Virus record (IMG/VR): IMGVR_UViG_3300021399_000113
Coordinates: 64,001-128,000 of that record
Reading direction: 5' to 3' (one strand)
DNA length: 64,000 nucleotides
Source of the DNA: a virus
Lineage: Duplodnaviria > Caudoviricetes
The notes below the pieces were generated by a model. The model did no database searches. It saw only the letters and a list, made by a program, of their open reading frames with translations, and was not told where the DNA came from. The position numbers and the translations under genes are program-made. Positions 2,651-15,764 of the stretch are shown here, in pieces (the first letter of the stretch is position 1; the number at the start of each line of letters is the position of its first letter).

Positions 2651-2723
2651 TTTATTCATAAGGCAAACACGATTTATTCATAAGGCAAACACGATTTATT
2701 CATAAGGCAAACACGATTTATTC
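2651..2723. repeat. 22-bp tandem repeat, 3.3 copies (TTTATTCATAAGGCAAACACGA)
   Basis: identical units, no spacers. Confidence 0.95.
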
Positions 2724-2774: not shown

Positions 2775-3434
2775 ATGAAAGCTGACAATTCTCCTAAAAG
2801 CCTAATATGCTACAAAGAGGGTAGAACCTATAAGTGGGTTGTATCTACTGAGGGTAATGAACAAAGTCTCCTATATCTTCTGATGATAAACCCTAAAATT
2901 CAGTTAGAATCTATAATTATCATCCCTATATTTGGGCTGTCTTTTGTAGGAGCTGTTCGTATGGGGTCTCAGAAGAAATTTGAGTTCTACGATTTCTTTA
3001 AGGAATATGGAGAAGCACCGACAATTACTACAAAATTTAATCGTGAAGCGGTAGCTCGTAAATTGTCTCAGATAGCAGAGAAATCAAAAACGAACAAAGA
3101 GGAAGTAGTAGTAGAAGACATTGTAAAGACTGTGTGCCATGAAAAGTATGGATTTATTTCACCCGATGGTGAGTATTATCGGTGTGAGTTCATGGGGCAT
3201 GGAGACTTAGCGTTTGACATTTGTGACGAACACAATTTCCCATATCTTAATTCTGCTGAGACTTATCTTGAAGAGCATGGTTGGTGTAAGGTGTATAATC
3301 CATGTGATAATATCCACAAATACGCTGTATATGTTGGAGGGGATTTTGTACTTACAAAAGAGCAGTTTGAAGTGCTTCAGAAAGAGGGACTTGAAAATGC
3401 ATATTATGTATCTGAGTATCTGGTAAGAGATTAA
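2775..3434 (+). CDS. hypothetical protein
   Basis: 219-aa ORF with GAGG RBS. Confidence 0.8.
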   Translation: MKADNSPKSLICYKEGRTYKWVVSTEGNEQSLLYLLMINPKIQLESIIIIPIFGLSFVGAVRMGSQKKFEFYDFFKEYGEAPTITTKFNREAVARKLSQIAEKSKTNKEEVVVEDIVKTVCHEKYGFISPDGEYYRCEFMGHGDLAFDICDEHNFPYLNSAETYLEEHGWCKVYNPCDNIHKYAVYVGGDFVLTKEQFEVLQKEGLENAYYVSEYLVRD

Positions 3435-3515
3435 GGTGTCTATCCGAATGGTGAGGGGGCTGTTTGCTAAACAGTTGGGCGAAATGCTTTGCGAGTTCGA
3501 ATCTCGTGGACACCG
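3435..3515 (+). tRNA. tRNA-Ser(GCT)
   Basis: loop TT-GCT-AA, long variable arm, G73. Confidence 0.88.
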
Positions 3516-3655
3516 CTTAGAAGGAAAACTAACCAAACCTATTGCGTAGGCTGGAGATAAATCCATAGAGGTCTAACCACTCAGTACCAGTGAAAATCAG
3601 AATCTGAGGAACTTCAGTACATGTGTACTGCGTAAGGGGATTGCGCCCCTTGTAT

Positions 3656-3727
3656 AGATGCTTGGTGTAGAAGGTAGCACAAGGGTCTCCAAAACCTTTA
3701 GCGTGGGTTCGAATCCTCCAGCATCTG
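3656..3727 (+). tRNA. tRNA-Trp(CCA)
   Basis: loop CT-CCA-AA. Confidence 0.92.
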
Positions 3728-3732
3728 CTTTT

Positions 3733-3804
3733 GTTCCTATAGTTTAACGGATAAAATAATGGACTACGAATCTGTTGATACAAGTTCGATTCTTGTTGGG
3801 AACA
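3733..3804 (+). tRNA. tRNA-Arg(ACG)
   Basis: loop CT-ACG-AA. Confidence 0.9.
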
Positions 3805-3809
3805 TTTAC

Positions 3810-3881
3810 ATCTCCGTAGTCTAATGGATAGGCAACGCTCTTCTAAAGCGTCTTATGTGAGTTCGAGCCTCATCGGAGATA
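3810..3881 (+). tRNA. tRNA-Arg(TCT)
   Basis: loop CT-TCT-AA. Confidence 0.9.
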
Positions 3882-3900
3882 TTTTTACAATTAAATATTT

Positions 3901-4027
3901 GGGCTGGTAGCCGAATCGGTATAGGCGGTAGCATTGCGAAAAATCAGTGTAGTCGATTAGACTGATACAGCAATTATCAAATGCATCATGGAGCTACTAT
4001 TTATGGGTTCAAGTCCCATCCAGCCCG
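3901..4027 (+). tRNA. tRNA-like gene whose anticodon loop is replaced by a 60-nt structured insert (identity uncertain, possibly CAT)
   Basis: perfect GGGCTGG/CCAGCCC acceptor, D and T arms; GTAGC/GCTAC stem encloses 3933-3992. Confidence 0.8.
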
Positions 4028-4029
4028 TT

Positions 4030-4148
4030 GGAAGGGTGGTGTAGTGGTAACACACGTATTATAAGTAGTTTAGTTGATTTACTACGTCTGCAATTATCAA
4101 AATTAGCCTGTTACGCTCGTGTCGAAGGTTCGATTCCTTCCCCTTCCG
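4030..4148 (+). tRNA. tRNA (Asp-like body, GTT anticodon) with 48-nt insert in the anticodon stem
   Basis: GGAAGGG/CCCTTCC acceptor; removing 4057-4104 restores CGAGC-CTGTTAC-GCTCG. Confidence 0.8.
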
Positions 4149-4227
4149 TTTTACCCCCCCCCCAAATAATGGAGTTGACAAATTTACTGAGATGTGGTAT
4201 ACTCTTCCACAAGTGAGGTACAGAGAT

Positions 4228-4797
4228 ATGAATAAATCGAGAAACATAGTATTTCTTGATGTGGATGGAGTATTAAACGGATATGACAGATTTTGGTATG
4301 CTATCTTCTGTCTGTTTAAAGTCACTAAATCAAAGAAGCTAATGGATTATTGGCACACCCATCTTGGATGCAGTGCATGGGCACATAAAGTATTTTACTT
4401 ATCAATTATAACACATTTAACACACTCAGACGTGGTATTATCTTCTTGCTGGAGAATGCGGTGGGAAACACACAATTCTCCAAAAAGAATGCGATTAAAG
4501 AAACTATTTAAGAGATTTGGTGTAAATGTGGTTGATACAACTATTCAGAAATATCTAAATGGTCGTGGGGAAGAAATCTCTTTATGGTTATCAGAACATG
4601 GTAATCCTAAAAATTACATTATTATTGATGATGAAACTTGTGACCAGTTAGAACACCTTGACCACATCATAAAAACAAGAAATCCTAAACTTGCAAATAC
4701 CGATATGATACAAGGCGGTGTTTCTGAAAAGACTGGATTAAGAGTACATCATATATTCAAAGCCATTCGGTTAATGAGATATTGGAGTAAGAAATAA
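4228..4797 (+). CDS. HAD-family phosphatase, Swiss-army-knife RNA repair type
   Basis: IVFLDVDGVLN, VVLSSCWR, RGEEI..WL, IIIDD motifs; start moved to 4228 because a promoter occupies 4175-4203. Confidence 0.8.
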   Translation: MNKSRNIVFLDVDGVLNGYDRFWYAIFCLFKVTKSKKLMDYWHTHLGCSAWAHKVFYLSIITHLTHSDVVLSSCWRMRWETHNSPKRMRLKKLFKRFGVNVVDTTIQKYLNGRGEEISLWLSEHGNPKNYIIIDDETCDQLEHLDHIIKTRNPKLANTDMIQGGVSEKTGLRVHHIFKAIRLMRYWSKK

Positions 4798-4850
4798 GGT
4801 ATTGACAAATTCAATATTTTGTGATACAATGTCCTTGTTGTGAAGGACAT

Positions 4851-4938
4851 GGTGGGATAGCCTAATTGGTAAGGCACTTGCACTGAAAGCAAGCGTTACG
4901 TTAATAGCGTATTGGGGGTTCGAATCCCTCTCCCATCG
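4851..4938 (+). tRNA. tRNA-Ser(TGA), non-canonical loop AC-TGA-AA
   Basis: long variable arm, G73; promoter TTGACA-17-TACAAT at 4802-4830. Confidence 0.8.
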
Positions 4939-4948
4939 TTAGCCCATT

Positions 4949-5022
4949 GCCGTATTAGACAAGTCAGGTTAAGCCTGCGGACTGCAACTCCGTGACCGCT
5001 GGTTCGAATCCAGCATACGGCT
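4949..5022 (+). tRNA. tRNA-Cys(GCA)
   Basis: loop CT-GCA-AC, U73. Confidence 0.9.
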
Positions 5023-5026
5023 TGTA

Positions 5027-5088
5027 ACGATGTTAACCGCAAATACACAAATGGTTGACTGCAAATCAATAAACTATAAACACATCGT
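5027..5088 (+). ncRNA. WCNGCAA-motif stem RNA 1 (carries Cys anticodon stem-loop mimic)
   Basis: ACGATGT/ACATCGT stem, TA-ACCGCAA, GTTGA-CTGCAAA-TCAAT. Confidence 0.65.
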
Positions 5089-5102
5089 GGAGGATGAAAA
5101 TT

Positions 5103-6596
5103 ATGGGATTTTATGAAGAACTTACAAAGGTTGCTAACAATGTAGCAGTAACTGAAAATGGAGCAATTGCGTATCGTACAAGTGGCTCTGCCCTTGTTGA
5201 TATGAACTTTGAAGTATCTGCATTCCGCAATAACGTAACAGCGGGTGTAGATATGTTCAAGAGAGCATACGCAGAAAATCCTAAGCTTGCTGTGCTTTAC
5301 CTCTTCTATCTCAGAGATTGCAGAGGTGGTCTTGGTGAACGTAATACCTTTAGAAACTGTTTTGCATGGCTTGCAAATAACCATGTAAATATGGCTAAGG
5401 CTGTACTTTCACTCATTTCTGAATATGGTAGATGGGATGACCTTGTAGCCCTTGTTGATACAAAGGTTAAGAAGGATGCCCTCGCTATCGTTTCAACACA
5501 GTTAAAGGCTGATATTGACAACATGAAGAATGGTAAGAGCATTTCTTTGCTTGCAAAGTGGATGCCCTCTATCAATACTTCTTCAAATAAGACACGTGCA
5601 CTCGCCAGAGTAATCTGCCGTGAGTTCATGAATATGCCTTATTCTGAGTACAGAAAGACTCTTGCTAAGTTGAGAGCATATACCAATGTCGTAGAGACAA
5701 AGATTTCCGCTAACAAGTGGGATGAAGTAGATTACAACACTGTTCCCTCTATGGCAAATCTGAAGTACAAGAATGCTTTCCTTAAGCATGATACTGACAG
5801 AAGAACCGCTTACCTTGAAGCACTCGTAAAGGGTGACTCCAACGTTAAGATTAACGCAAGTACCCTTACTTGTGTTGACATTGTAGATAAGTACAGTGAT
5901 GGTCGTAGTTACTGGAATGGCTCTGTAAAGAGCGACTTAGACGTAACCCTTGAGGAACTTTGGAAGGCACTTCCGTCTTTCAGTGTTGAAGATACTGTTG
6001 TAGTGAGGGATGGCTCTGGTTCTATGATTGGCACACCTCTCACTGTTGCTACTGCACTTGCAGTTTATACTGCACAGCACAACAAGGGTGAGTTCAAGGA
6101 TAAGTATATCACCTTCTCTGCTGACCCTCGTGTAATTGACATCTCCAAGTGCTCAACACTTCATGATGCCCTCATTAGGTCTTACAGAGAGGACGATTGC
6201 TCCAATACAAATCTGAAGAAGGTATTTCGTCTTATCCTTGATACAGCACGTATGAACAAGTATAAGAATGAAGACCTTCCTAAGAATATCCTCGTTATCT
6301 CTGATATGCAGTTTGACGCTGGCTACATGGCTATGCCTCTCATGTCAGAAATCGAGTTGGAGTACAGACAGTACGGATATGACCTTCCTAAGTTGATTTT
6401 CTGGAATGTTGCTGGTAGTGTGAACAGAACTATTCCTGTAACTGTCAACAAGAATGGTGTAATCCTTATCTCTGGATATACTCAGTCCCTTCTTAAGATG
6501 GTAATGTCCAACGAGACAGACCCTTACAAGGCACTTGTGGCAACCCTTGCTACCGAGAGATACAAAGCGGTAGCGGATGCCCTTGACCTTGTATAA
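5103..6596 (+). CDS. DUF2828-family protein (Ro/TROVE-like helical domain plus vWA)
   Basis: TENGA, RDCRGGLGER, YGRWDDL, LLAKWMPS, DGSGSM, SDMQFD, FWNV motifs; ATG 5103 has a properly spaced GGAGG. Confidence 0.88.
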   Translation: MGFYEELTKVANNVAVTENGAIAYRTSGSALVDMNFEVSAFRNNVTAGVDMFKRAYAENPKLAVLYLFYLRDCRGGLGERNTFRNCFAWLANNHVNMAKAVLSLISEYGRWDDLVALVDTKVKKDALAIVSTQLKADIDNMKNGKSISLLAKWMPSINTSSNKTRALARVICREFMNMPYSEYRKTLAKLRAYTNVVETKISANKWDEVDYNTVPSMANLKYKNAFLKHDTDRRTAYLEALVKGDSNVKINASTLTCVDIVDKYSDGRSYWNGSVKSDLDVTLEELWKALPSFSVEDTVVVRDGSGSMIGTPLTVATALAVYTAQHNKGEFKDKYITFSADPRVIDISKCSTLHDALIRSYREDDCSNTNLKKVFRLILDTARMNKYKNEDLPKNILVISDMQFDAGYMAMPLMSEIELEYRQYGYDLPKLIFWNVAGSVNRTIPVTVNKNGVILISGYTQSLLKMVMSNETDPYKALVATLATERYKAVADALDLV

Positions 6597-6706
6597 AAAT
6601 AAGGTATTGACTTTTTGAAAAAAGTGTTGTATATTATTATATGACACTTGAAGAACAAAAGAGGTAAATCGGCAAGGTTCAGATAACCAACCTCCCCTTG
6701 CGACAT

Positions 6707-6780
6707 TCCCCTTTAGCTCAGTTGGTCAGAGCGAGTGGCTGTTAACCACTATGTCGTAGGTTCGATTCCTACAGGGGGAG
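6707..6780 (+). tRNA. tRNA-Asn(GTT)
   Basis: loop CT-GTT-AA. Confidence 0.95.
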
Positions 6781-6782
6781 CT

Positions 6783-6890
6783 GAGGCATTCACTGCAAAT
6801 TCTTCTAAAACAAATGGGATAAAGAAGAAAATGATTTGTGTTGTTATTGCCAGACATTTCAAAGGTAACATCTATCGCTGTTTGTGCCTC
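6783..6890 (+). ncRNA. WCNGCAA-motif stem RNA 2
   Basis: GAGGCAT/GTGCCTC stem followed by TC-ACTGCAA. Confidence 0.55.
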
Positions 6891-7023
6891 GTTTAAACAG
6901 TGGATTACTGATGGTGTTCTGAGGGCAACACAATCGACCTCTTATTATGAATCCGCTAATAGTAATAAGAGCCGTTAGGTTACTCACCAACATTGATTTA
7001 GTCGGATTTACCATCCGACACCA

Positions 7024-7096
7024 CGGGGTGTGGCGCAAATGGTAGCGCACGTGCTTTGGGAGCATGGGGTTGTGGGTTCGAGTCCCGTCACTCCGA
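7024..7096 (+). tRNA. tRNA-Pro(TGG)
   Basis: loop TT-TGG-GA. Confidence 0.94.
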
Positions 7097-7109
7097 CTTA
7101 AAAATCATC

Positions 7110-7185
7110 GGTGTATTAGTGTAGTTGGTCTAACACGTCTGCCTTGCAAGCAGAATGTCGTGGGTTCGAGTCCCACATGCATCCA
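7110..7185 (+). tRNA. tRNA with TGC (Ala) anticodon and atypical acceptor stem
   Basis: loop CT-TGC-AA; no G3:U70 in the standard register. Confidence 0.75.
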
Positions 7186-7497
7186 CGTGGCTGACAATAT
7201 TCTTATATCGGAAAGCCCTGCGTAGTGGGAGCTAAATAGATAGAGGGTGGCAACCTTAATAGCTCAACATTGCTTATCGTAATACGTCCCAAGTACAATG
7301 AATAAAAGGTAAGCAAATGTTGTAATCCGCAAGATGTGTCATGCGGTATAAAAATTATGAAACATCCTCTATGGGTATCGGGATATGAAAGGTGAATCCA
7401 CCCACATAGAGTGAACCCAAAAGCCCATGATATTATTGGACTATGCGTGAATGTCCCTTTGAGGGGCTAAAAAATATCTGAAACGCTTGGTGATATT
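7186..7497 (+). ncRNA. candidate structured ncRNA
   Basis: ORF-free stretch with consecutive helices. Confidence 0.45.
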
Positions 7498-7579
7498 GGG
7501 GGATTGGTGGAATTGGCAGACACACGGGATTTAAGCTCCCGTGGAACAATCCGTGTGGGTTCAAGTCCCACATCCCTCA
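7498..7579 (+). tRNA. tRNA-Leu(TAA)
   Basis: loop TT-TAA-GC, variable arm. Confidence 0.93.
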
Positions 7580-7585
7580 GTTATA

Positions 7586-7686
7586 AAGACAGTTACTGCA
7601 ATCACATTGCAAAGTTATTTAAGGAAATAATACCATTGATGTTCTACGTGTCCAACGTACCGCATTAAACGCAAACAAACTGTCTT
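7586..7686 (+). ncRNA. WCNGCAA-motif stem RNA 3
   Basis: AAGACAG/CTGTCTT stem followed by TT-ACTGCAA. Confidence 0.6.
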
Positions 7687-7725
7687 GATATTTAATGATT
7701 TTGATTTTTAATTTTAATTAATTTA

Positions 7726-7793
7726 ACGATACATACAGCAACTATTACACAAGCCTTTCACTTTTAATGAAAAACAGCTAAGAAACGTATCGT
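7726..7793 (+). ncRNA. WCNGCAA-motif stem RNA 4 (carries Lys anticodon stem-loop mimic)
   Basis: ACGATAC/GTATCGT stem, AT-ACAGCAA, TTTCA-CTTTTAA-TGAAA. Confidence 0.65.
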
Positions 7794-7837
7794 GTATTAT
7801 TTAACTAACTTTTAATTTAATTTTTAGATTACTTAAA

Positions 7838-7923
7838 ACGACAGCATCAGCAACACAAACATCTTTCCTATTTATAATTTATAATTCCACAAATTACGAA
7901 AAGGGCGAATGAAAAACTGTCGT
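7838..7923 (+). ncRNA. WCNGCAA-motif stem RNA 5
   Basis: ACGACAG/CTGTCGT stem followed by CA-TCAGCAA. Confidence 0.6.
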
Positions 7924-7936
7924 GTATATTGATTAT

Positions 7937-8010
7937 TGCAGGGTGGCGCAAAAGGTTAGCTCAGTGGACTCATAATCCAAAGGTTGGGGGTTCAAATCCC
8001 TCCCCTGCAA
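7937..8010 (+). tRNA. tRNA-Met(CAT), initiator-like acceptor
   Basis: loop CT-CAT-AA, TGCAGGG/CCCTGCA. Confidence 0.88.
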
Positions 8011-8054
8011 CTTGCACGTAACTGTGCTAAACCTTATTTTTATTCAATATAAAA

Positions 8055-8097
8055 GCATCTATCGTTTTAGTGTACTATTGCGGTAGGTGTTTTTTTT
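8055..8097 (+). terminator. intrinsic terminator ending the tRNA array
   Basis: GCATCTATCG/CGGTAGGTGT hairpin followed by a T run. Confidence 0.75.
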
Positions 8098-8155
8098 CTA
8101 TTGACAAATCCACTAAATTGGTATATAATGTATCTATACGTGGAGGAATGAAAAA

Positions 8156-8473
8156 ATGAGATATAATTTTAAGAGTGATAAGCAAGAGAGACAGGTTTCC
8201 ATTATCTTTGGGGTGTTATTAGCCCTTGCATTTGTTTTCTGCATCTGGTATAATGCCACAGATGATGCAAGAACATTTAATTCCCATGAGTGGGAAACAG
8301 AGTGTATAAGAGTAGGTAGTGGTGATACTTATTGGGGAATCGCCACAGATTATTGCCCTATGGATATGGATAGACGTTACTACATACAGAAGGTTAAGGA
8401 ACTCAATGATACCACCTCTGATTATTTAATCAGTGGTGAGCATATCATGGTTTATGTTTTAAAGGAAGAGTAA
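8156..8473 (+). CDS. membrane-anchored LysM-domain protein (YneA-like)
   Basis: N-terminal TM segment; VGSGDTYWGIA...IQKVKELN...LISGEHI; promoter 8101-8129. Confidence 0.75.
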   Translation: MRYNFKSDKQERQVSIIFGVLLALAFVFCIWYNATDDARTFNSHEWETECIRVGSGDTYWGIATDYCPMDMDRRYYIQKVKELNDTTSDYLISGEHIMVYVLKEE

Positions 8474-9199
8474 ATGAAAAAGTATTTCGTATTTTCAGAC
8501 GTGCATGGATATTTTGATATATTGGATAAAGCACTTAAAGATAGAGGATTTGACAAGGATAATCCAGACCACATCATAATCTCTTGTGGTGATTTGTTAG
8601 ACAGAGGAAGACAGCCAAGAGAATGTTTAGAGTTTGTAATGGGCATTCCAGAAGATAGACGTATCTTGGTTATGGGAAATCATGATGACCTCTTATGGAC
8701 GCTACTTATGACAAGAAATCCTCATATACACGATATTACGAATGGCACTGTAGATACAGTCATTGATTTCGTAGGAAGAAATGTTAATAACAAAGAAAAG
8801 TATTCACTGCTTGATGCTGACCTTGTTGACATGAAAGAAGACCCTTTGTGGAAGAGTTACTACAATGCGCTTGTGCCTTATGCAGAAGTTGGAGATAGGA
8901 TATTTGTTCATGGATGGTTACCATCCCTTGATTATAAGAATGCTACTTTTAGAGACTGGCGAGATGCTATGTGGCTTAATGGCATGAGAGAGTGGTTTGA
9001 AGATTATCAACTTGCTGACAAAACAATCTTTTGTGGACACTGGCACACATCTTGGGGGCACTATTACATACACAAGATAGGGTCAGAGTGGGACGAAGAT
9101 GCTTGTTTTGATGTATTTGAAGATAAAGGGATAGTTGCTCTCGATGCTTGCACAGCACATTCTCAAAAAATTAACGTTTATACATTTGAAACAGAATAA
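8474..9199 (+). CDS. calcineurin-like metallophosphoesterase
   Basis: SDVHG, GDLLDRG, GNHD, VHG, GHWH. Confidence 0.9.
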   Translation: MKKYFVFSDVHGYFDILDKALKDRGFDKDNPDHIIISCGDLLDRGRQPRECLEFVMGIPEDRRILVMGNHDDLLWTLLMTRNPHIHDITNGTVDTVIDFVGRNVNNKEKYSLLDADLVDMKEDPLWKSYYNALVPYAEVGDRIFVHGWLPSLDYKNATFRDWRDAMWLNGMREWFEDYQLADKTIFCGHWHTSWGHYYIHKIGSEWDEDACFDVFEDKGIVALDACTAHSQKINVYTFETE

Positions 9200-9214: not shown

Positions 9215-10519
9215 ATGGATTTACTATTAAAGATTGCAAACAGAATACAAGAATGTGGTGGAGAAATTTTCTATGTTGGTGGATATGTCAGAGACAAGAT
9301 TATCGGAAAGCCCAATAAGGACATTGATGTAGAAATCTACAATATCACACCAGATGACCTTAAATCCATCTTGGCTGAATTCGGTGAGGTGCAGACTATT
9401 GGTAAATCCTTTGGTATCTACAACATTAAAGGGTTGGATATTGATTTTGCTCTTCCTCGTACAGAAACAGCTACTGGTAGAGGGCATAAGGATTTTGAAG
9501 TATTTGTTGACCCATTCATCGACAAGAAGACCGCTTGCTCAAGAAGAGATTTTACCATGAATGCTCTGATGGAGAATGTAAATACTGGTGAAGTTTTAGA
9601 TTTCTTTGGTGGCAGAGAAGATATTAATAATAAAATAATTAGGCACGTTTCTGATGAAACTTTCAGTGAAGACCCCTTAAGAGTATTAAGGGCTTGTCAG
9701 TTTTCATCAAGATTCGGATTTGAAATTGCTGAAGAAACAAAGGAACTTGCACGTAAAGCTGACCTTACAGCACTTCCTTCTGAGCGTATCTTTGAGGAAA
9801 TTAAAAAGGCGCTTACTAAATCAAAAAAGCCCTCAATCTTTTTTAATGCGCTAAAGGAAATGGGGTATGAATATTTATTCCCAGAGTTATACAGACTTGA
9901 CAGAATTGAACAGTCTGCTGATTATCATCCAGAGGGAAATGTATATGTACATACAATGTGTGTACTTGATAGCCTTGCAGAACTTGGTTATCATGATTTA
10001 AAACTTATGTTATCAGCCCTCTGTCATGATATGGGCAAGTATGAGGCACATACATTTGATGGAAAGAAGCATCACTTCTACAACCATGAGAGCGTTGGGT
10101 TGCCTATTGCAGAAGCATTTCTTTCAAGACTTACCAATGAGACAGAAATTCATAAATATGTGCTTGATATGGTTAAGAACCACATGAGGATTCATCAATC
10201 ATTAAAATCTAAAAAGCCAAAGGTGTGGAATAGAATTTTTGATGAATCTATTGCTCCCTCAATGCTTATTGAGTTATCTTTTGCTGATACGCTTAACAAA
10301 GATAAGTATGAGCACCTTAAGGCAATCGAGTGGTATACAAAATACAGTAACCACTGTCAGGATGATAAACAGTTACAGGGTAAAGATTTGGTAGCGTTAG
10401 GATATAAGCCCAGCCCAAGATTTACCGATATTTTGAACTTTGCTCATGGTTTATGGTTGAGCATGACACCTTATGACCAGATAGTTAAAGCAGTTACAAA
10501 GGAATTTCCTATTGACTAA
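9215..10519 (+). CDS. cca: CCA-adding tRNA nucleotidyltransferase with HD domain
   Basis: VGGYVRD, DIDVE, RRDFTMNAL, EDPLRVLRA, HPEG..HT, HDMGK. Confidence 0.92.
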   Translation: MDLLLKIANRIQECGGEIFYVGGYVRDKIIGKPNKDIDVEIYNITPDDLKSILAEFGEVQTIGKSFGIYNIKGLDIDFALPRTETATGRGHKDFEVFVDPFIDKKTACSRRDFTMNALMENVNTGEVLDFFGGREDINNKIIRHVSDETFSEDPLRVLRACQFSSRFGFEIAEETKELARKADLTALPSERIFEEIKKALTKSKKPSIFFNALKEMGYEYLFPELYRLDRIEQSADYHPEGNVYVHTMCVLDSLAELGYHDLKLMLSALCHDMGKYEAHTFDGKKHHFYNHESVGLPIAEAFLSRLTNETEIHKYVLDMVKNHMRIHQSLKSKKPKVWNRIFDESIAPSMLIELSFADTLNKDKYEHLKAIEWYTKYSNHCQDDKQLQGKDLVALGYKPSPRFTDILNFAHGLWLSMTPYDQIVKAVTKEFPID

Positions 10520-14687: not shown

Positions 14688-15128
14688 ATGAGAGATGCTA
14701 TGATGCATGAGTATGGTGTTAGAAAGCCTTACATTGAGAACTTAAATCTTTTCAAAACAGTCTTGCACAATAAGATTGCCAATAGTTTTTTAAAGGATTA
14801 TGTAGATATAAAGATTACCGATAAGGGAAATGTAATTGTAAATTTCAAACCTTTTACTATTGACCTATCAAAAGATGACTACTACGACAGCAGAAAACAG
14901 CAGATAAATGCTTGCAAGCTGGTATATGTCCTTAATGATATTGACTTTGAATGGCTGTTTGAAAATGCCATTCCGCAAGAAGATGAATTAAGAGATGATG
15001 AAATCAGTCAATTGTATGAGGAATTTGATGACTATCTTGACGAGGCATACAAGGTTGAGTTTGGTTATCAGAATAGTGTGGCTGACCAGATAATTAAAAA
15101 TTTCTATATATACTATGGGGATGAATAA
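14688..15128 (+). CDS. hypothetical protein
   Basis: own promoter (14624-14652), RBS, terminator at 15127-15156. Confidence 0.75.
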   Translation: MRDAMMHEYGVRKPYIENLNLFKTVLHNKIANSFLKDYVDIKITDKGNVIVNFKPFTIDLSKDDYYDSRKQQINACKLVYVLNDIDFEWLFENAIPQEDELRDDEISQLYEEFDDYLDEAYKVEFGYQNSVADQIIKNFYIYYGDE

Positions 15129-15224
15129 AAGAGAACTTAGGTTCTCTTTTTTTTTTGCTATTGACAAATTTATTGTTATGTGCTATTATATTATCACAAA
15201 GAAAATTTATTGGAGGTAAATATT

Positions 15225-15764
15225 ATGAACTCAACAGAAATTGACCAGCGAATTAGTGAGATTGAAAATTCTTTGAAAAGCCTTAATGGGCAAATAGAGA
15301 AATTGAAGAAAATCAAGGAAGAATTGAAGATGGAACAGGAACGTCTTGATGGTAAACCCTCGATGGGTGAGTTTTACTATTCTATTGATGAAACTGGTTG
15401 TATCAGTGAAAATGTCTGGGGATGTAATCATTGGAATGACAATGATAGATTTAATATAGGAAATGCATTTAAGACATTTGAAGACGCTGAATTTGAGCTT
15501 GAGCGTAGAAAGGTTTATGCACAACTCCGCAGACTGTCTGACACATCTATGGAGAAAGTTGGTAGCAGAAAGAGTCCAGATATTGAAAAGTATACGATTA
15601 TTGCTAATTTAGGCTATACTGGGGGTATAAAGGGCAAAATATACACTTACTTTAATAATACGGATATTGATACAGACATATTTTTTAGCACAGATGCAGA
15701 CGCTGAGAGCGCCATTAAAACAATAGGGGAAGATAGACTTCTGAAATATTATTTTAGATTTTAG
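15225..15764 (+). CDS. conserved phage hypothetical protein with N-terminal coiled coil
   Basis: GGAGG RBS; GNAFKT..DAE motif. Confidence 0.75.
   Translation: MNSTEIDQRISEIENSLKSLNGQIEKLKKIKEELKMEQERLDGKPSMGEFYYSIDETGCISENVWGCNHWNDNDRFNIGNAFKTFEDAEFELERRKVYAQLRRLSDTSMEKVGSRKSPDIEKYTIIANLGYTGGIKGKIYTYFNNTDIDTDIFFSTDADAESAIKTIGEDRLLKYYFRF

What the first reader, a model, noticed from the sequence alone, without database searches (positions are those of the whole stretch)
3901..4148. Two adjacent tRNA genes carry homologous inserts in the anticodon arm, a circularly permuted copy of the motif
Seen: both have intact acceptor, D and T arms. The inserts align as ATCAGT-gTAGTCGATTag-ACTGAT-acaGCAATTATCAAA and GTAGT-tTAGTTGATTt-ACTAC-gtctGCAATTATCAAA, with compensatory stem changes. 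The stem strands come in the opposite order to the free elements, so the tRNA itself is the payload. Removing 4057-4104 gives a perfect tRNA with an Asp-like body and GTT anticodon. The inserts are far too short for group I introns. Inference: either YrlA-like tRNA mimics tethered to the Ro-like protein, or a new type of small protein-spliced tRNA intron.
Basis: partly seen in the sequence, partly recalled or inferred. Interest (0 to 1): 0.8.

Follow-up and report, generated by a model that had tools for sequence, protein, structure and literature searches.

The report
tRNA genes carrying Ro-like protein handle
Two neighbouring tRNA-shaped genes in a gut phage each carry a conserved extra arm (a hairpin followed by ACAGCAA) in the anticodon stem; the same arm marks small RNAs encoded beside a Ro60-shaped phage protein, so these are probably a back-to-front, undescribed form of the tRNA-mimicking Y RNAs and not tRNAs with introns.

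Summary
Window 3901-4027 and 4030-4148 are tRNA-shaped genes (Rfam tRNA 47.2 and 44.6 bits), each with a 48-60 nt insert in the anticodon arm. The insert is an A-rich linker, a hairpin, ACAGCAA (TCTGCAA in the second) and a U-rich tail.

In the second gene the insert lies between nucleotides 28 and 29, and an intact GUU anticodon stem-loop follows it.

The same module occurs in at least 177 distinct tRNA-shaped genes of other phage contigs. Almost all sit on the strand of a DUF2828 gene, at a median of about 415 nt upstream. The predicted fold of that protein matches Ro60.

A covariance model built without the window ranks the two inserts first and second in 64 kb. The hairpin covaries.

The module also exists in free form (five copies here; also in phages Tsamsa, Archie, FelixO1 and P100). 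In Enterococcus phage PEF1 it appears as an exact circular permutation with YrlA topology.

Best reading (0.62): the insert is a retained docking handle for the Ro-like protein. A spliced intron is not excluded (0.12). "Asp-like body" is not supported.

This scan has noted the same handle on this genome and on at least six others. I found no paper or Rfam family that describes it.

The parts
3901..4027 (+). tRNA-shaped gene t1 (127 nt). Acceptor 3901-3907/4020-4026, discriminator G 4027. D arm 3910-3926. Anticodon-stem strands 3928-3932 (GTAGC) and 3993-3997 (GCTAC). T arm 4003-4019. No encoded CCA.
   Evidence: Rfam tRNA 47.2 bits; own scanner; sequence
3933..3992 (+). t1 insert (60 nt between the two anticodon-stem strands). 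A-rich linker 3933-3942. Hairpin 3943-3948/3961-3966 with a 12-nt loop. Handle ACAGCAATTATCAAA 3967-3981. Tail TGCATCATGGA 3982-3992, with no canonical 7-nt anticodon loop.
   Evidence: CM R1 hit 3937-3981, 26.4 bits, E 1.3e-4; MFE fold keeps the hairpin. ARAGORN -i can instead read loop ATTGCG|A (Ala UGC) with a 53-nt intron at 37/38, but relatives do not share that loop.
4030..4148 (+). tRNA-shaped gene t2 (119 nt). Acceptor 4030-4036/4141-4147, discriminator G 4148. D arm 4039-4053. C27 G28 at 4055-4056. Anticodon hairpin AGC-CTGTTAC-GCT 4105-4117 (GTT). C42 G43 at 4118-4119. T arm 4124-4140.
   Evidence: Rfam tRNA 44.6 bits. The L004 relative keeps the same split stem with compensatory changes, GCA-CTGTTAA-TGC.
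4057..4104 (+). t2 insert (48 nt) between nucleotides 28 and 29 of the 5' strand of the anticodon stem. Linker 4057-4064. Hairpin 4065-4069/4081-4085 with an 11-nt loop. Handle GTCTGCAATTATCAAA 4086-4101. ATT 4102-4104.
   Evidence: CM R1 hit 4058-4101, 18.2 bits, E 0.035. 97 distinct genes carry the insert at 28/29 or 29/30.
5094..6596 (+). DUF2828 + DUF7788 protein (500 aa; PHROG 850 'RNA-binding protein'): the Ro60-like ring plus vWA domain, and the presumed partner of the handle.
   Evidence: Pfam; PHROGs; AF2 model with pLDDT 78 matches Ro60/TROVE structures 9kop, 9l5y, 1yvr, 2nvo at E 1e-10 to 3e-6 over about 500 columns
5027..5088 (+). Free-form element (closing stem ACGATGT/ACATCGT, then TAACCGCAA).
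   Evidence: lead; tested
6783..6890 (+). Free-form element (GAGGCAT/GTGCCTC, then TCACTGCAA).
7588..7684 (+). Free-form element (GACAGTT/AACTGTC, then ACTGCAA).
7726..7793 (+). Free-form element (ACGATAC/GTATCGT, then ATACAGCAA).
   Evidence: weak R1 hit 7715-7749
7838..7923 (+). Free-form element (ACGACAG/CTGTCGT, then CATCAGCAA).
6707..6781 (+). Canonical tRNA-Asn(GTT) of the same phage. It has the same anticodon as t2, so t2 is not the phage's only GTT tRNA.
   Evidence: ARAGORN and Rfam
4175..4203 (+). Strong sigma-70-type promoter just after t2. No promoter-like site on the + strand lies between tRNA-Ser (3435) and t2, so t1 and t2 appear to close a tRNA transcription unit.
   Evidence: consensus match only

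Best explanation
t1 and t2 are tRNA-topology members of an uncatalogued family of partner RNAs for the phage's Ro60-like DUF2828 protein. In effect they are Y RNAs of the YrlA kind turned inside out.

Each is transcribed with the neighbouring tRNAs. Its tRNA frame should be trimmed by the RNase P/Z type enzymes and given CCA by the phage's CCA-adding enzyme. The extra arm stays in the mature RNA.

That arm is an A-rich run, a helix, then NN-ACAGCAA and a U-rich run. It is the docking handle for the Ro-like ring. In t2 it branches from the anticodon stem between nucleotides 28 and 29 as a three-way junction, so the bound protein would sit directly beside an intact GUU anticodon loop. In t1 it takes the place of most of the anticodon loop.

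The tRNA body is the 'payload' that the particle displays. My most likely purpose, given weakly, is to engage proteins that recognise tRNAs, such as host anticodon nucleases or tRNA repair and processing enzymes, in the phage-host conflict over tRNA.

Shown here: the tRNA frames, the module and its covarying helix, its family, its linkage to DUF2828, the Ro60-like predicted fold, and the free and permuted forms.

Inferred: that the protein binds the handle, that the insert is retained, and the purpose.
For: (1) tRNA frames: Rfam tRNA 47.2 and 44.6 bits, with 7/7 Watson-Crick acceptor stems.

(2) Family. Protein-first sample: 56 of 81 DUF2828 loci hold 1-5 module-bearing tRNA-shaped genes. Of these, 147 of 148 lie on the gene's strand, with the median end 415 nt upstream. 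RNA-first sample: about 75 real hits, 50 with DUF2828 in the same fragment. Of five hits with no gene nearby, both genomes that are at least 90% complete carry it elsewhere. In prokaryote assemblies, 24 of 38 real hits have DUF2828 within 8 kb.

(3) A CM built without the window ranks the two inserts first and second in 64 kb.

(4) Helix covariation. In 56 sequences that were not selected for the hairpin, 88% of cells pair and 7 of 7 pairs change on both sides. Slide controls give 37-44% for the whole structure. RNAalifold predicts the hairpin on its own.

(5) The split anticodon stem of t2 is kept in L004 with compensatory changes. In class I loops, A38 is 96% although it was not a selection criterion.

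(6) The DUF2828 model matches Ro60 structures.

(7) The handle works without exons. Free forms lie next to DUF2828 here and in Tsamsa, Archie, FelixO1/FO1a and P100.

(8) PEF1 units have the same connectivity, with the acceptor closed by a loop and the helix open. They score 45.9 and 35.7 bits on YrlA.

(9) In a P100-like phage, three very abundant unannotated transcripts lie within 2 kb upstream of the Rsr-like gene, and the authors proposed Y RNAs (PMC12282133). That these are the three P100 free elements is my inference.

(10) Ro60 chiefly contacts a short motif on the 5' strand next to the terminal helix of Y RNAs (PMC4201824). The handle has that layout.

(11) The phage has canonical Asn(GTT) and Ala(TGC) genes as well.
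Against: - No binding, expression or processing data exist for these two genes or for any tRNA-topology member.
- Linkage is strong but not absolute. Some fragments with a module show no DUF2828 within several kb.
- The DUF2828 profile finds no Ro60 by sequence in the PDB. The kinship rests on a predicted fold of moderate confidence (pLDDT 78, TM 0.45-0.63).
- t2's handle reads TCTGCAA, not ACAGCAA, and its CM score is modest (E 0.035, with rough calibration).
- A perfectly restorable GTT anticodon arm is also what an intron would leave.
- Acceptor, T-arm and anticodon-stem pairing in my family sets were selection criteria, so they prove nothing.
- The proposed purpose (bait or tether) is untested.
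Confidence: 0.62

Rival explanations
1. The inserts are small protein-spliced introns. An endonuclease that recognises the hairpin and ACAGCAA cuts at both borders, a ligase (host RtcB or a phage enzyme) joins the halves, and t2 becomes an ordinary tRNA(GUU). The DUF2828 protein could serve as a splicing platform.
For: Removing 4057-4104 restores a perfect 5-bp stem and a 7-nt loop with U33 and A37. ARAGORN can model both genes with an intron. In the protein-first loci, 49 tRNA-shaped genes keep a restorable anticodon arm, among them one with a class II variable arm and GTA. The neighbourhood holds end-healing enzymes: a HAD_SAK_2 phosphatase, two metallophosphoesterases, a CCA-adding enzyme and RlaP.
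Against: The same module stands alone as free RNAs, and as permuted YrlA-like RNAs in which there is nothing to splice. The insert is more conserved than the exons. No insert-less orthologue exists among 877 canonical tRNAs of the fetched loci (best 0.81 identity). The position varies (28/29, 29/30, or within the loop), and about half of the family (class II, including t1) leaves no canonical loop. G000 (83% complete) has no tRNA-splicing endonuclease, RtcB or T4 Rnl1, and its ligase is of the DNA-ligase family. The phage already has a canonical tRNA-Asn(GTT).
Confidence: 0.12
2. The functional RNA runs across the gene border. The 3' half of t1 (handle, T arm, acceptor strand) and the 5' half of t2 (acceptor strand, D arm, helix strand) form one YrlA-like RNA of about 110 nt, as in Enterococcus phage PEF1.
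For: Rfam YrlA matches 3974-4083 at 27.8 bits (E 4.5e-4 in a 351-nt search). PEF1 has exactly this arrangement, with good inter-unit acceptor hairpins. The t1 strand ACTGAT can pair with AGTAGT of t2 at 5 of 6 positions (by inspection).
Against: The inter-unit acceptor hairpin CCAGCCC-GTT-GGAAGGG pairs at only 4 of 7 positions (marked non-standard), whereas each gene's own acceptor stem pairs 7 of 7 Watson-Crick. Each hairpin pairs perfectly within its own gene. Many family members are solitary, not tandem. The score is far below the gathering score of 69.
Confidence: 0.07
3. The module is a cis-acting processing signal or small self-cleaving element that cuts the tRNA-shaped transcripts into halves. 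DUF2828 is only a neighbour.
For: The module is a compact hairpin with an invariant single-stranded heptamer, a layout also seen at sites recognised by RNA-processing endonucleases (my own knowledge).
Against: No Rfam ribozyme or other family matches. The conserved part is too small for known self-cleaving folds. Linkage to a Ro60-like RNA-binding protein is the stronger regularity.
Confidence: 0.05
4. They are decaying tRNA pseudogenes disrupted by unrelated insertions.
For: Default ARAGORN does not call them. The bodies of t1 and t2 match no isoacceptor family well.
Against: All stems are intact. The insert is a conserved, covarying module present in at least 177 distinct genes of many phage lineages at a constant place and strand.
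Confidence: 0.03

Closest known systems
YrlA-type Y RNAs with Ro60/Rsr (Rfam RF02553; Chen et al. 2014, PMC4201824)
   Same: A small RNA encoded within a few kb of a ring-plus-vWA RNA-binding protein, on the same strand. It joins a protein-binding helix with a short adjacent motif to a tRNA-like T arm, acceptor and D arm. Phage examples are known.
   Different: Here the RNA ends lie in a normal acceptor stem and the binding helix is capped by a loop, which is the reverse of YrlA. An anticodon stem-loop is kept (t2). The motif is ACAGCAA, not GNCGAAN0-1G. The protein is Pfam DUF2828/DUF7788, not TROVE. The Rfam score is 27.8 against a gathering score of 69.
Thermus phage phiLo Ro60 with Yrl1 and Yrl2 (PMC12135203; PDB 9KOP, 9L5Y)
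   Same: A phage-encoded Ro60-like ring with phage-encoded partner RNAs upstream of its gene. These structures are the best structural matches of the DUF2828 model.
   Different: The phiLo RNAs are classic stem-bulge-stem Y RNAs with a CGAA motif and have no tRNA frame. Sequence identity to the protein is only 15-16% in the structural alignment.
Archaeal and eukaryal protein-spliced tRNA introns (review PMC4090602)
   Same: A short insert in the anticodon arm of a tRNA gene. Non-canonical positions, including the anticodon stem, are known in archaea.
   Different: The phage record has no splicing endonuclease or RtcB. The insert carries a conserved sequence motif that also occurs in stand-alone RNAs. 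I saw no evident bulge-helix-bulge, though I ran no formal search for one.
tmRNA, including two-piece, circularly permuted tmRNA genes (my own knowledge)
   Same: A tRNA frame (acceptor stem and T arm) whose anticodon arm is replaced or extended by another functional domain and which works with a dedicated protein. Both normal and circularly permuted gene forms exist in nature.
   Different: No reading frame for a tag peptide and no pseudoknots. t1 and t2 lack the G3:U70 alanine identity pair (the L004 relative of t1 has it). The partner is a Ro-like ring, not SmpB.
Permuted tRNA genes of Cyanidioschyzon merolae (my own knowledge)
   Same: The same RNA connectivity is found in two circular permutations.
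   Different: Those genes mature into ordinary tRNAs through a circular intermediate. Here both permutations appear to be end products that carry a protein handle.

Membership tests
tRNA (Rfam RF00005) | Score at or above the Rfam gathering score | tested here: met
   47.2 and 44.6 bits against 29
tRNA (Rfam RF00005) | 7-bp acceptor stem, D arm, and T arm with a TTCRA loop | tested here: met
   Sequence; scanner
tRNA (Rfam RF00005) | Uninterrupted 5-bp anticodon stem closing a 7-nt loop | tested here: not met
   In t2 the stem is interrupted by 48 nt between nucleotides 28 and 29; the loop CTGTTAC is intact. t1 has 60 nt between its stem strands and no canonical loop shared with relatives.
tRNA (Rfam RF00005) | Aminoacylation and decoding | not testable with these tools
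   Needs biochemistry
YrlA / bacterial Y RNA (RF02553) | Score at or above the Rfam gathering score (69 bits) | tested here: not met
   27.8 bits for 3974-4083, spanning both genes
YrlA / bacterial Y RNA (RF02553) | Encoded within 4 kb of the Ro60 orthologue, on the same strand | tested here: met
   t2 ends 946 nt upstream of the Ro-like gene at 5094-6596, same strand
YrlA / bacterial Y RNA (RF02553) | Partner protein carries a TROVE domain | tested here: inconclusive
   Pfam gives DUF2828 and DUF7788, not TROVE. The profile finds nothing in PDB sequences. The predicted fold matches Ro60 and TROVE structures.
YrlA / bacterial Y RNA (RF02553) | RNA ends lie in the protein-binding stem; T arm, closed acceptor hairpin and D arm form the loop | tested here: not met
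   Reverse topology: open acceptor stem, capped binding helix
YrlA / bacterial Y RNA (RF02553) | GNCGAAN0-1G motif near the 5' strand of the stem | tested here: not met
   The handle is ACAGCAA or TCTGCAA. The loop of the t1 hairpin holds only GTCGAT, a 5-of-6 match (motif as given in PMC4201824).
Protein-spliced tRNA intron (archaeal/eukaryal type) | Splicing endonuclease (PF01974) and RNA ligase available | tested here: not met
   G000 (83% complete) has no PF01974, PF01139 or PF09511; the PF09511 control rang in no genome, so that one negative carries no weight. Host enzymes were not examined.
Protein-spliced tRNA intron (archaeal/eukaryal type) | Bulge-helix-bulge at the splice sites, or the canonical 37/38 position | tested here: inconclusive
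   t2's insert is at 28/29. t1 can be modelled at 37/38 by ARAGORN, but relatives do not share that loop. I ran no formal BHB search.
Group I intron | Catalytic core of about 200 nt or more | tested here: not met
   The inserts are 48 and 60 nt. No intron family matches in Rfam.
Helix + ACAGCAA handle RNAs beside DUF2828 (uncatalogued; defined in this scan) | A-rich run, covarying helix, NN-ACAGCAA, U-rich run | tested here: met
   CM R1, built without the window, gives 26.4 and 18.2 bits as the top two hits. Covariation.
Helix + ACAGCAA handle RNAs beside DUF2828 (uncatalogued; defined in this scan) | Same strand as a DUF2828 gene and close to it | tested here: met

The most novel reading that the evidence does not exclude
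These are chargeable tRNAs with working anticodons that carry a built-in docking site for a Ro60-like ring. That would make them a protein-gated or protein-guarded class of tRNA. The phage could use them as bait for host anticodon nucleases, trapping the nuclease or triggering repair, or as a protected reserve of tRNA-Asn and other isoacceptors that is released when the host attacks its own tRNAs.
Probability: 0.25. Interest if true: 0.9.

Novelty: new variant of a known kind. Interest (0 to 1): 0.72.

Why it matters
Ro60 and its Y RNAs are an old puzzle. The protein is conserved from bacteria to humans, and no one has explained why bacterial Y RNAs imitate tRNA.

Here a Ro60-shaped protein family, present in at least 709 GenBank phage genomes (FelixO1-like, P100-like and Tsamsa-like phages, Enterococcus Schiekvirus and mycobacteriophages among them), turns out to travel with a simple, recognisable RNA handle. 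The handle comes in three forms: free, as a permuted tRNA of the YrlA kind, and built into complete tRNA frames that keep an anticodon.

The tRNA-topology form places the protein beside a real anticodon loop, most often GUU. That turns 'why a tRNA mimic?' into a testable question about anticodon nucleases, tRNA repair and translation during infection.

On the practical side, these genes are missed or misread by standard tRNA finders. In GenBank records the region is unannotated or covered by spurious small ORFs, as in PEF1. A covariance model for the handle would annotate hundreds of phage RNAs.

Tried and rejected
1. Megablast of 3000-9000 against GenBank phages gave two hits that I first took to be in t2. 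They are query coordinates and fall on the canonical tRNA-Pro at 7024. They are irrelevant.

2. An exact pattern scan of IMG/VR with the window's own loop and 12-mer found one chance match in coding DNA.

3. The 12-mer or 9-mer alone is not enriched in the window.

4. A position-weight matrix trained on loosely defined free elements could not separate sites in 64 kb, because the training set was mostly chance stems. I dropped it in favour of the covariance model.

5. The DUF2828 profile against PDB sequences found nothing. The Ro60 link needed a predicted structure.

6. Rfam has no family for the free elements or the module.

7. ARAGORN's intron models (t1 as Ala UGC with an intron at 37/38, t2 as Arg CCT) were rejected as the main reading. 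t1 lacks G3:U70, its ATTGCGA loop is absent from relatives, and the t2 model has a poorer stem than the GTT reading that L004 supports.

8. A pseudoknot between the hairpin loop and ATCAA is possible in t2 but mismatched in t1. Pairing of ATTGC with GCAAT in t1 is not conserved in relatives.

9. The 'Asp-like body' was rejected.

10. I searched for insert-less orthologues and found none.

PMC5062991 (Burroughs and Aravind 2016) is not held.
Full report
**What is there**

The window is bases 64001-128000 of a 138.6-kb IMG/VR virus record. Its first 8 kb is a tRNA island with 17 genes that ARAGORN calls.

Rfam's tRNA model finds two more, at 3901-4027 (t1, 47.2 bits) and 4030-4148 (t2, 44.6 bits). 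In each, about 60 nt of the anticodon region are left unaligned.

Both have seven Watson-Crick acceptor pairs, a D arm and a T arm. No promoter-like site on the + strand lies between tRNA-Ser (3435) and t2, and a strong one follows t2 at 4175-4203. The two genes therefore appear to close a tRNA transcription unit. Neither encodes CCA. A CCA-adding enzyme is encoded at 9215-10519.

**Anatomy of the inserts**

In t1 the anticodon-stem strands GTAGC (3928-3932) and GCTAC (3993-3997) enclose 60 nt. These are:
- an A-rich linker;
- a 6-bp hairpin (3943-3948/3961-3966);
- ACAGCAATTATCAAA (3967-3981);
- an 11-nt tail.

In t2, C27 G28 (4055-4056) are followed by a 48-nt insert (4057-4104). It holds a linker, a 5-bp hairpin (4065-4069/4081-4085) and GTCTGCAATTATCAAA (4086-4101). 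Then come AGC-CTGTTAC-GCT and C42 G43.

So the insert interrupts the 5' strand of the anticodon stem between nucleotides 28 and 29, and the GUU loop is intact. Two of the five stem pairs shared by the two hairpins differ on both sides.

**Is it more than chance?**

The short motifs alone are not. The module as a whole is.

I fetched 80 IMG/VR loci through an alignment of DUF2828 proteins. I scanned them with a simple tRNA-frame finder that requires a perfect 7-bp acceptor stem, a D arm and a T arm, and accepts lengths of 98 nt or more.
- 56 of the 81 protein-first loci (window included) hold one to five long tRNA-shaped genes with hairpin-plus-ACAGCAA inserts.
- 147 of 148 lie on the strand of the DUF2828 gene.
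- The median end lies 415 nt upstream of it.

A second, RNA-first sample used an IMG/VR pattern scan. It gave about 75 real members, 50 of them with a DUF2828 gene in the same fragment and on the same strand, mostly 50-900 nt away. Of five hits with no gene nearby, both genomes that are at least 90% complete carry the gene elsewhere.

The same pattern in prokaryote assemblies gave 38 real members, 24 with DUF2828 within 8 kb. Most come from contigs of Lachnospiraceae and other Clostridia MAGs, which hints at the hosts.

A covariance model of the module, built from 70 sequences of other phages with the window excluded, ranks 3937-3981 (26.4 bits, E 1.3e-4) and 4058-4101 (18.2 bits, E 0.035) first and second in the whole window. 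The calibration is short, so the E-values are rough.

**Structure support**

I aligned 56 class I genes that had not been selected for having a hairpin. In the insert helix, 88% of cells pair, and all seven pairs show changes on both sides. With the 3' partners slid by 1-3 columns, pairing over the whole structure is 37-44%. RNAalifold predicts that helix independently.

Pairing in the acceptor, T and anticodon stems was a selection criterion in my sets and counts for nothing. A38 at 96% in class I loops was not a criterion.

**Two architectures**

- **Class I** (97 distinct sequences; t2 belongs here). The insert follows nucleotide 28 or 29, and a complete anticodon hairpin follows it. In the unbiased protein-first loci, 35 of 49 are GTT. 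Others are GGT, TTT, TGG, GGG, GTG, TGT and TTG. One GTA gene has a class II variable arm.
- **Class II** (80 sequences; t1 belongs here). The insert replaces the 5' part of the loop. The last bases before the 3' strand often look like anticodon positions 34-38 (NCCAA, RGGRA). t1 has TCATGGA.

The relative L004 (DUF2828 46% identical) has a t2-like gene with the same split stem and compensatory changes: CG | insert | GCA-CTGTTAA-TGC-CG.

No insert-less orthologue exists among 877 canonical tRNAs of the fetched loci (best 0.81 identity). The phage has its own canonical Asn(GTT) and Ala(TGC) genes. The bodies of t1 and t2 resemble no isoacceptor family in particular, so 'Asp-like' is not supported.

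**The partner protein**

Window 5094-6596 encodes a protein assigned to DUF2828 plus DUF7788 and to PHROG 850, 'RNA-binding protein'. A profile of the family finds no PDB sequence.

Its AlphaFold model (pLDDT 78, pTM 0.71) matches Ro60/TROVE structures over about 500 columns:
- Thermus phage phiLo Ro60 (9kop, E 1.4e-10, TM 0.59-0.63; 9l5y);
- Xenopus Ro (1yvr, 1yvp, 2i91);
- Deinococcus Rsr (2nvo).

vWA/MIDAS domains match its C-terminal part.

The neighbours are RNA-end enzymes: HAD_SAK_2, two metallophosphoesterases, the CCA-adding enzyme and RlaP. The ligase is of the DNA-ligase family.

**The handle in other forms**

The window has five free elements: 5027-5088, 6783-6890, 7588-7684, 7726-7793 and 7838-7923. 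Each has a 7-bp closing stem whose 5' strand is followed, after 2-5 nt, by NCNGCAA, and whose 3' strand is preceded by an A-rich run.

Conditioned on [AT]CNGCAA, free elements and tRNA inserts share a U-rich run after the motif and a C at position -8. Other occurrences of the motif do not.

DUF2828 genes occur in 709 GenBank phage records. Free elements lie beside the gene in:
- Bacillus phage Tsamsa;
- Mycobacterium phage Archie (three, directly downstream);
- Salmonella phage FO1a, a FelixO1 relative (four);
- Listeria phage P100 (three, directly upstream of gp165).

For a P100-like phage, three very abundant unannotated transcripts within 2 kb upstream of the Rsr-like gene have been reported and proposed to be Y RNAs. 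The protein was also found in virions (PMC12282133). That those transcripts are the three elements is my inference.

**The permutation made explicit**

In Enterococcus phage PEF1, upstream of its DUF2828 gene, the units read in this order: helix strand, ACAGCAA, short anticodon-like hairpin, T arm, acceptor strand, 3-6 nt loop, acceptor strand, D arm, A-rich run, complementary helix strand. One example of the closing helix is AAGAATC...GATTCTT.

This is the connectivity of class I, with the acceptor closed and the helix opened. That is YrlA topology, and the units score 45.9 and 35.7 bits on Rfam YrlA, below the gathering score of 69.

In the window the opposite choice is clear. Each gene's own acceptor stem pairs 7 of 7, while the inter-gene hairpin pairs 4 of 7. 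The YrlA model gives only 27.8 bits across the junction.

**Mechanism**

Ro60 mainly contacts a short motif on the 5' strand next to the terminal helix of Y RNAs: GGUCCGA in animals and GNCGAAN0-1G in YrlA (PMC4201824). The helix-plus-ACAGCAA handle has that layout and travels with a Ro60-shaped protein.

I therefore read t1 and t2 as tRNA-framed partner RNAs whose extra arm stays in place and docks the protein next to the anticodon arm. The purpose is inferred only. Given the tRNA island, the end-healing enzymes and the displayed anticodons, the best guess is engagement of tRNA-recognising proteins, either host anticodon nucleases or repair and processing enzymes.

**Rivals**

- **Splicing** is not excluded. 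The restorable GTT arm is what an intron would leave. It has no positive support, however: free and permuted forms need no splicing, there are no insert-less orthologues, half of the family leaves no canonical loop, and the 83%-complete record holds no PF01974 or RtcB; the T4 Rnl1 search also found nothing, but its control rang in no genome and it carries no weight.
- **The cross-gene YrlA reading**, **a processing element** and **pseudogenes** are weaker. They are set out under the rival explanations.

**Novelty**

Rfam 15 has no family for the handle. Full-text searches for DUF2828, for Ro-like phage RNAs and for tRNA insertions found no description. The library is incomplete, and Burroughs and Aravind 2016 could not be read.

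The closest known system is Ro60 with YrlA. This is a variant with a different protein family label, a different motif, and an inverted topology that keeps the tRNA ends and, in class I, the anticodon.

The same handle has been noted by this scan on this genome and on at least six others. I used those notes as leads only and re-tested what I took from them.

Noticed in passing
L034:9523-9642, L035:6561-6690 and 9385-9504, L037:8994-9113, L065:6561-6690 (and relatives): A second, unrelated kind of 40-60 nt insert sits in the anticodon loop of tRNA-shaped genes downstream of the DUF2828 gene in related gut phages. It contains a hairpin of the type GTAGGGGCAGCACCTAC and has no ACAGCAA.
   Followed up: no
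L203:2440-2890 (Enterococcus phage PEF1, OQ653963.1 about 133940-134390): Three tandem handle RNAs, two with YrlA topology, are unannotated in a cultured Schiekvirus. Small 'hypothetical protein' ORFs partly cover them. BLAST suggests the same in about 29 Enterococcus phage records.
   Followed up: partly
G002:C1:73020-74435 (the genome that holds L087): The DUF2828 gene of this complete 86-kb phage has 6 in-frame TGA and 1 TAA. That suggests a recoded genetic code (TGA read as a residue) in that phage.
   Followed up: no
window 4066-4091 compared with 7117-7142: The t2 hairpin and the start of its handle are 81% identical over 26 nt to the D arm and 5' anticodon-stem strand of the canonical tRNA-Ala(TGC) (family D18). 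This may be chance, or a hint that the t2 handle (TCTGCAA) was rebuilt from tRNA sequence.
   Followed up: no
window 2651-2723: Three exact tandem copies of a 22-nt unit (within a 29-nt repeat) lie between tRNA-Gln and the ORF at 2775-3434 (family D10).
   Followed up: no
window 4149-4164: TTTTA followed by a run of ten C lies directly after t2 and before the promoter at 4175-4203. No terminator-like hairpin was found in 3300-5200.
   Followed up: no
L004:7727-7847: The t1-like gene of the relative L004 has G3:U70 and A73, the alanine identity set. The window's t1 has G3-C70 and G73.
   Followed up: no
window 2775-3434, 14688-15128, 15180-15764: These ORFs in the tRNA and RNA-enzyme island have no Pfam or PHROG match.
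   Followed up: no
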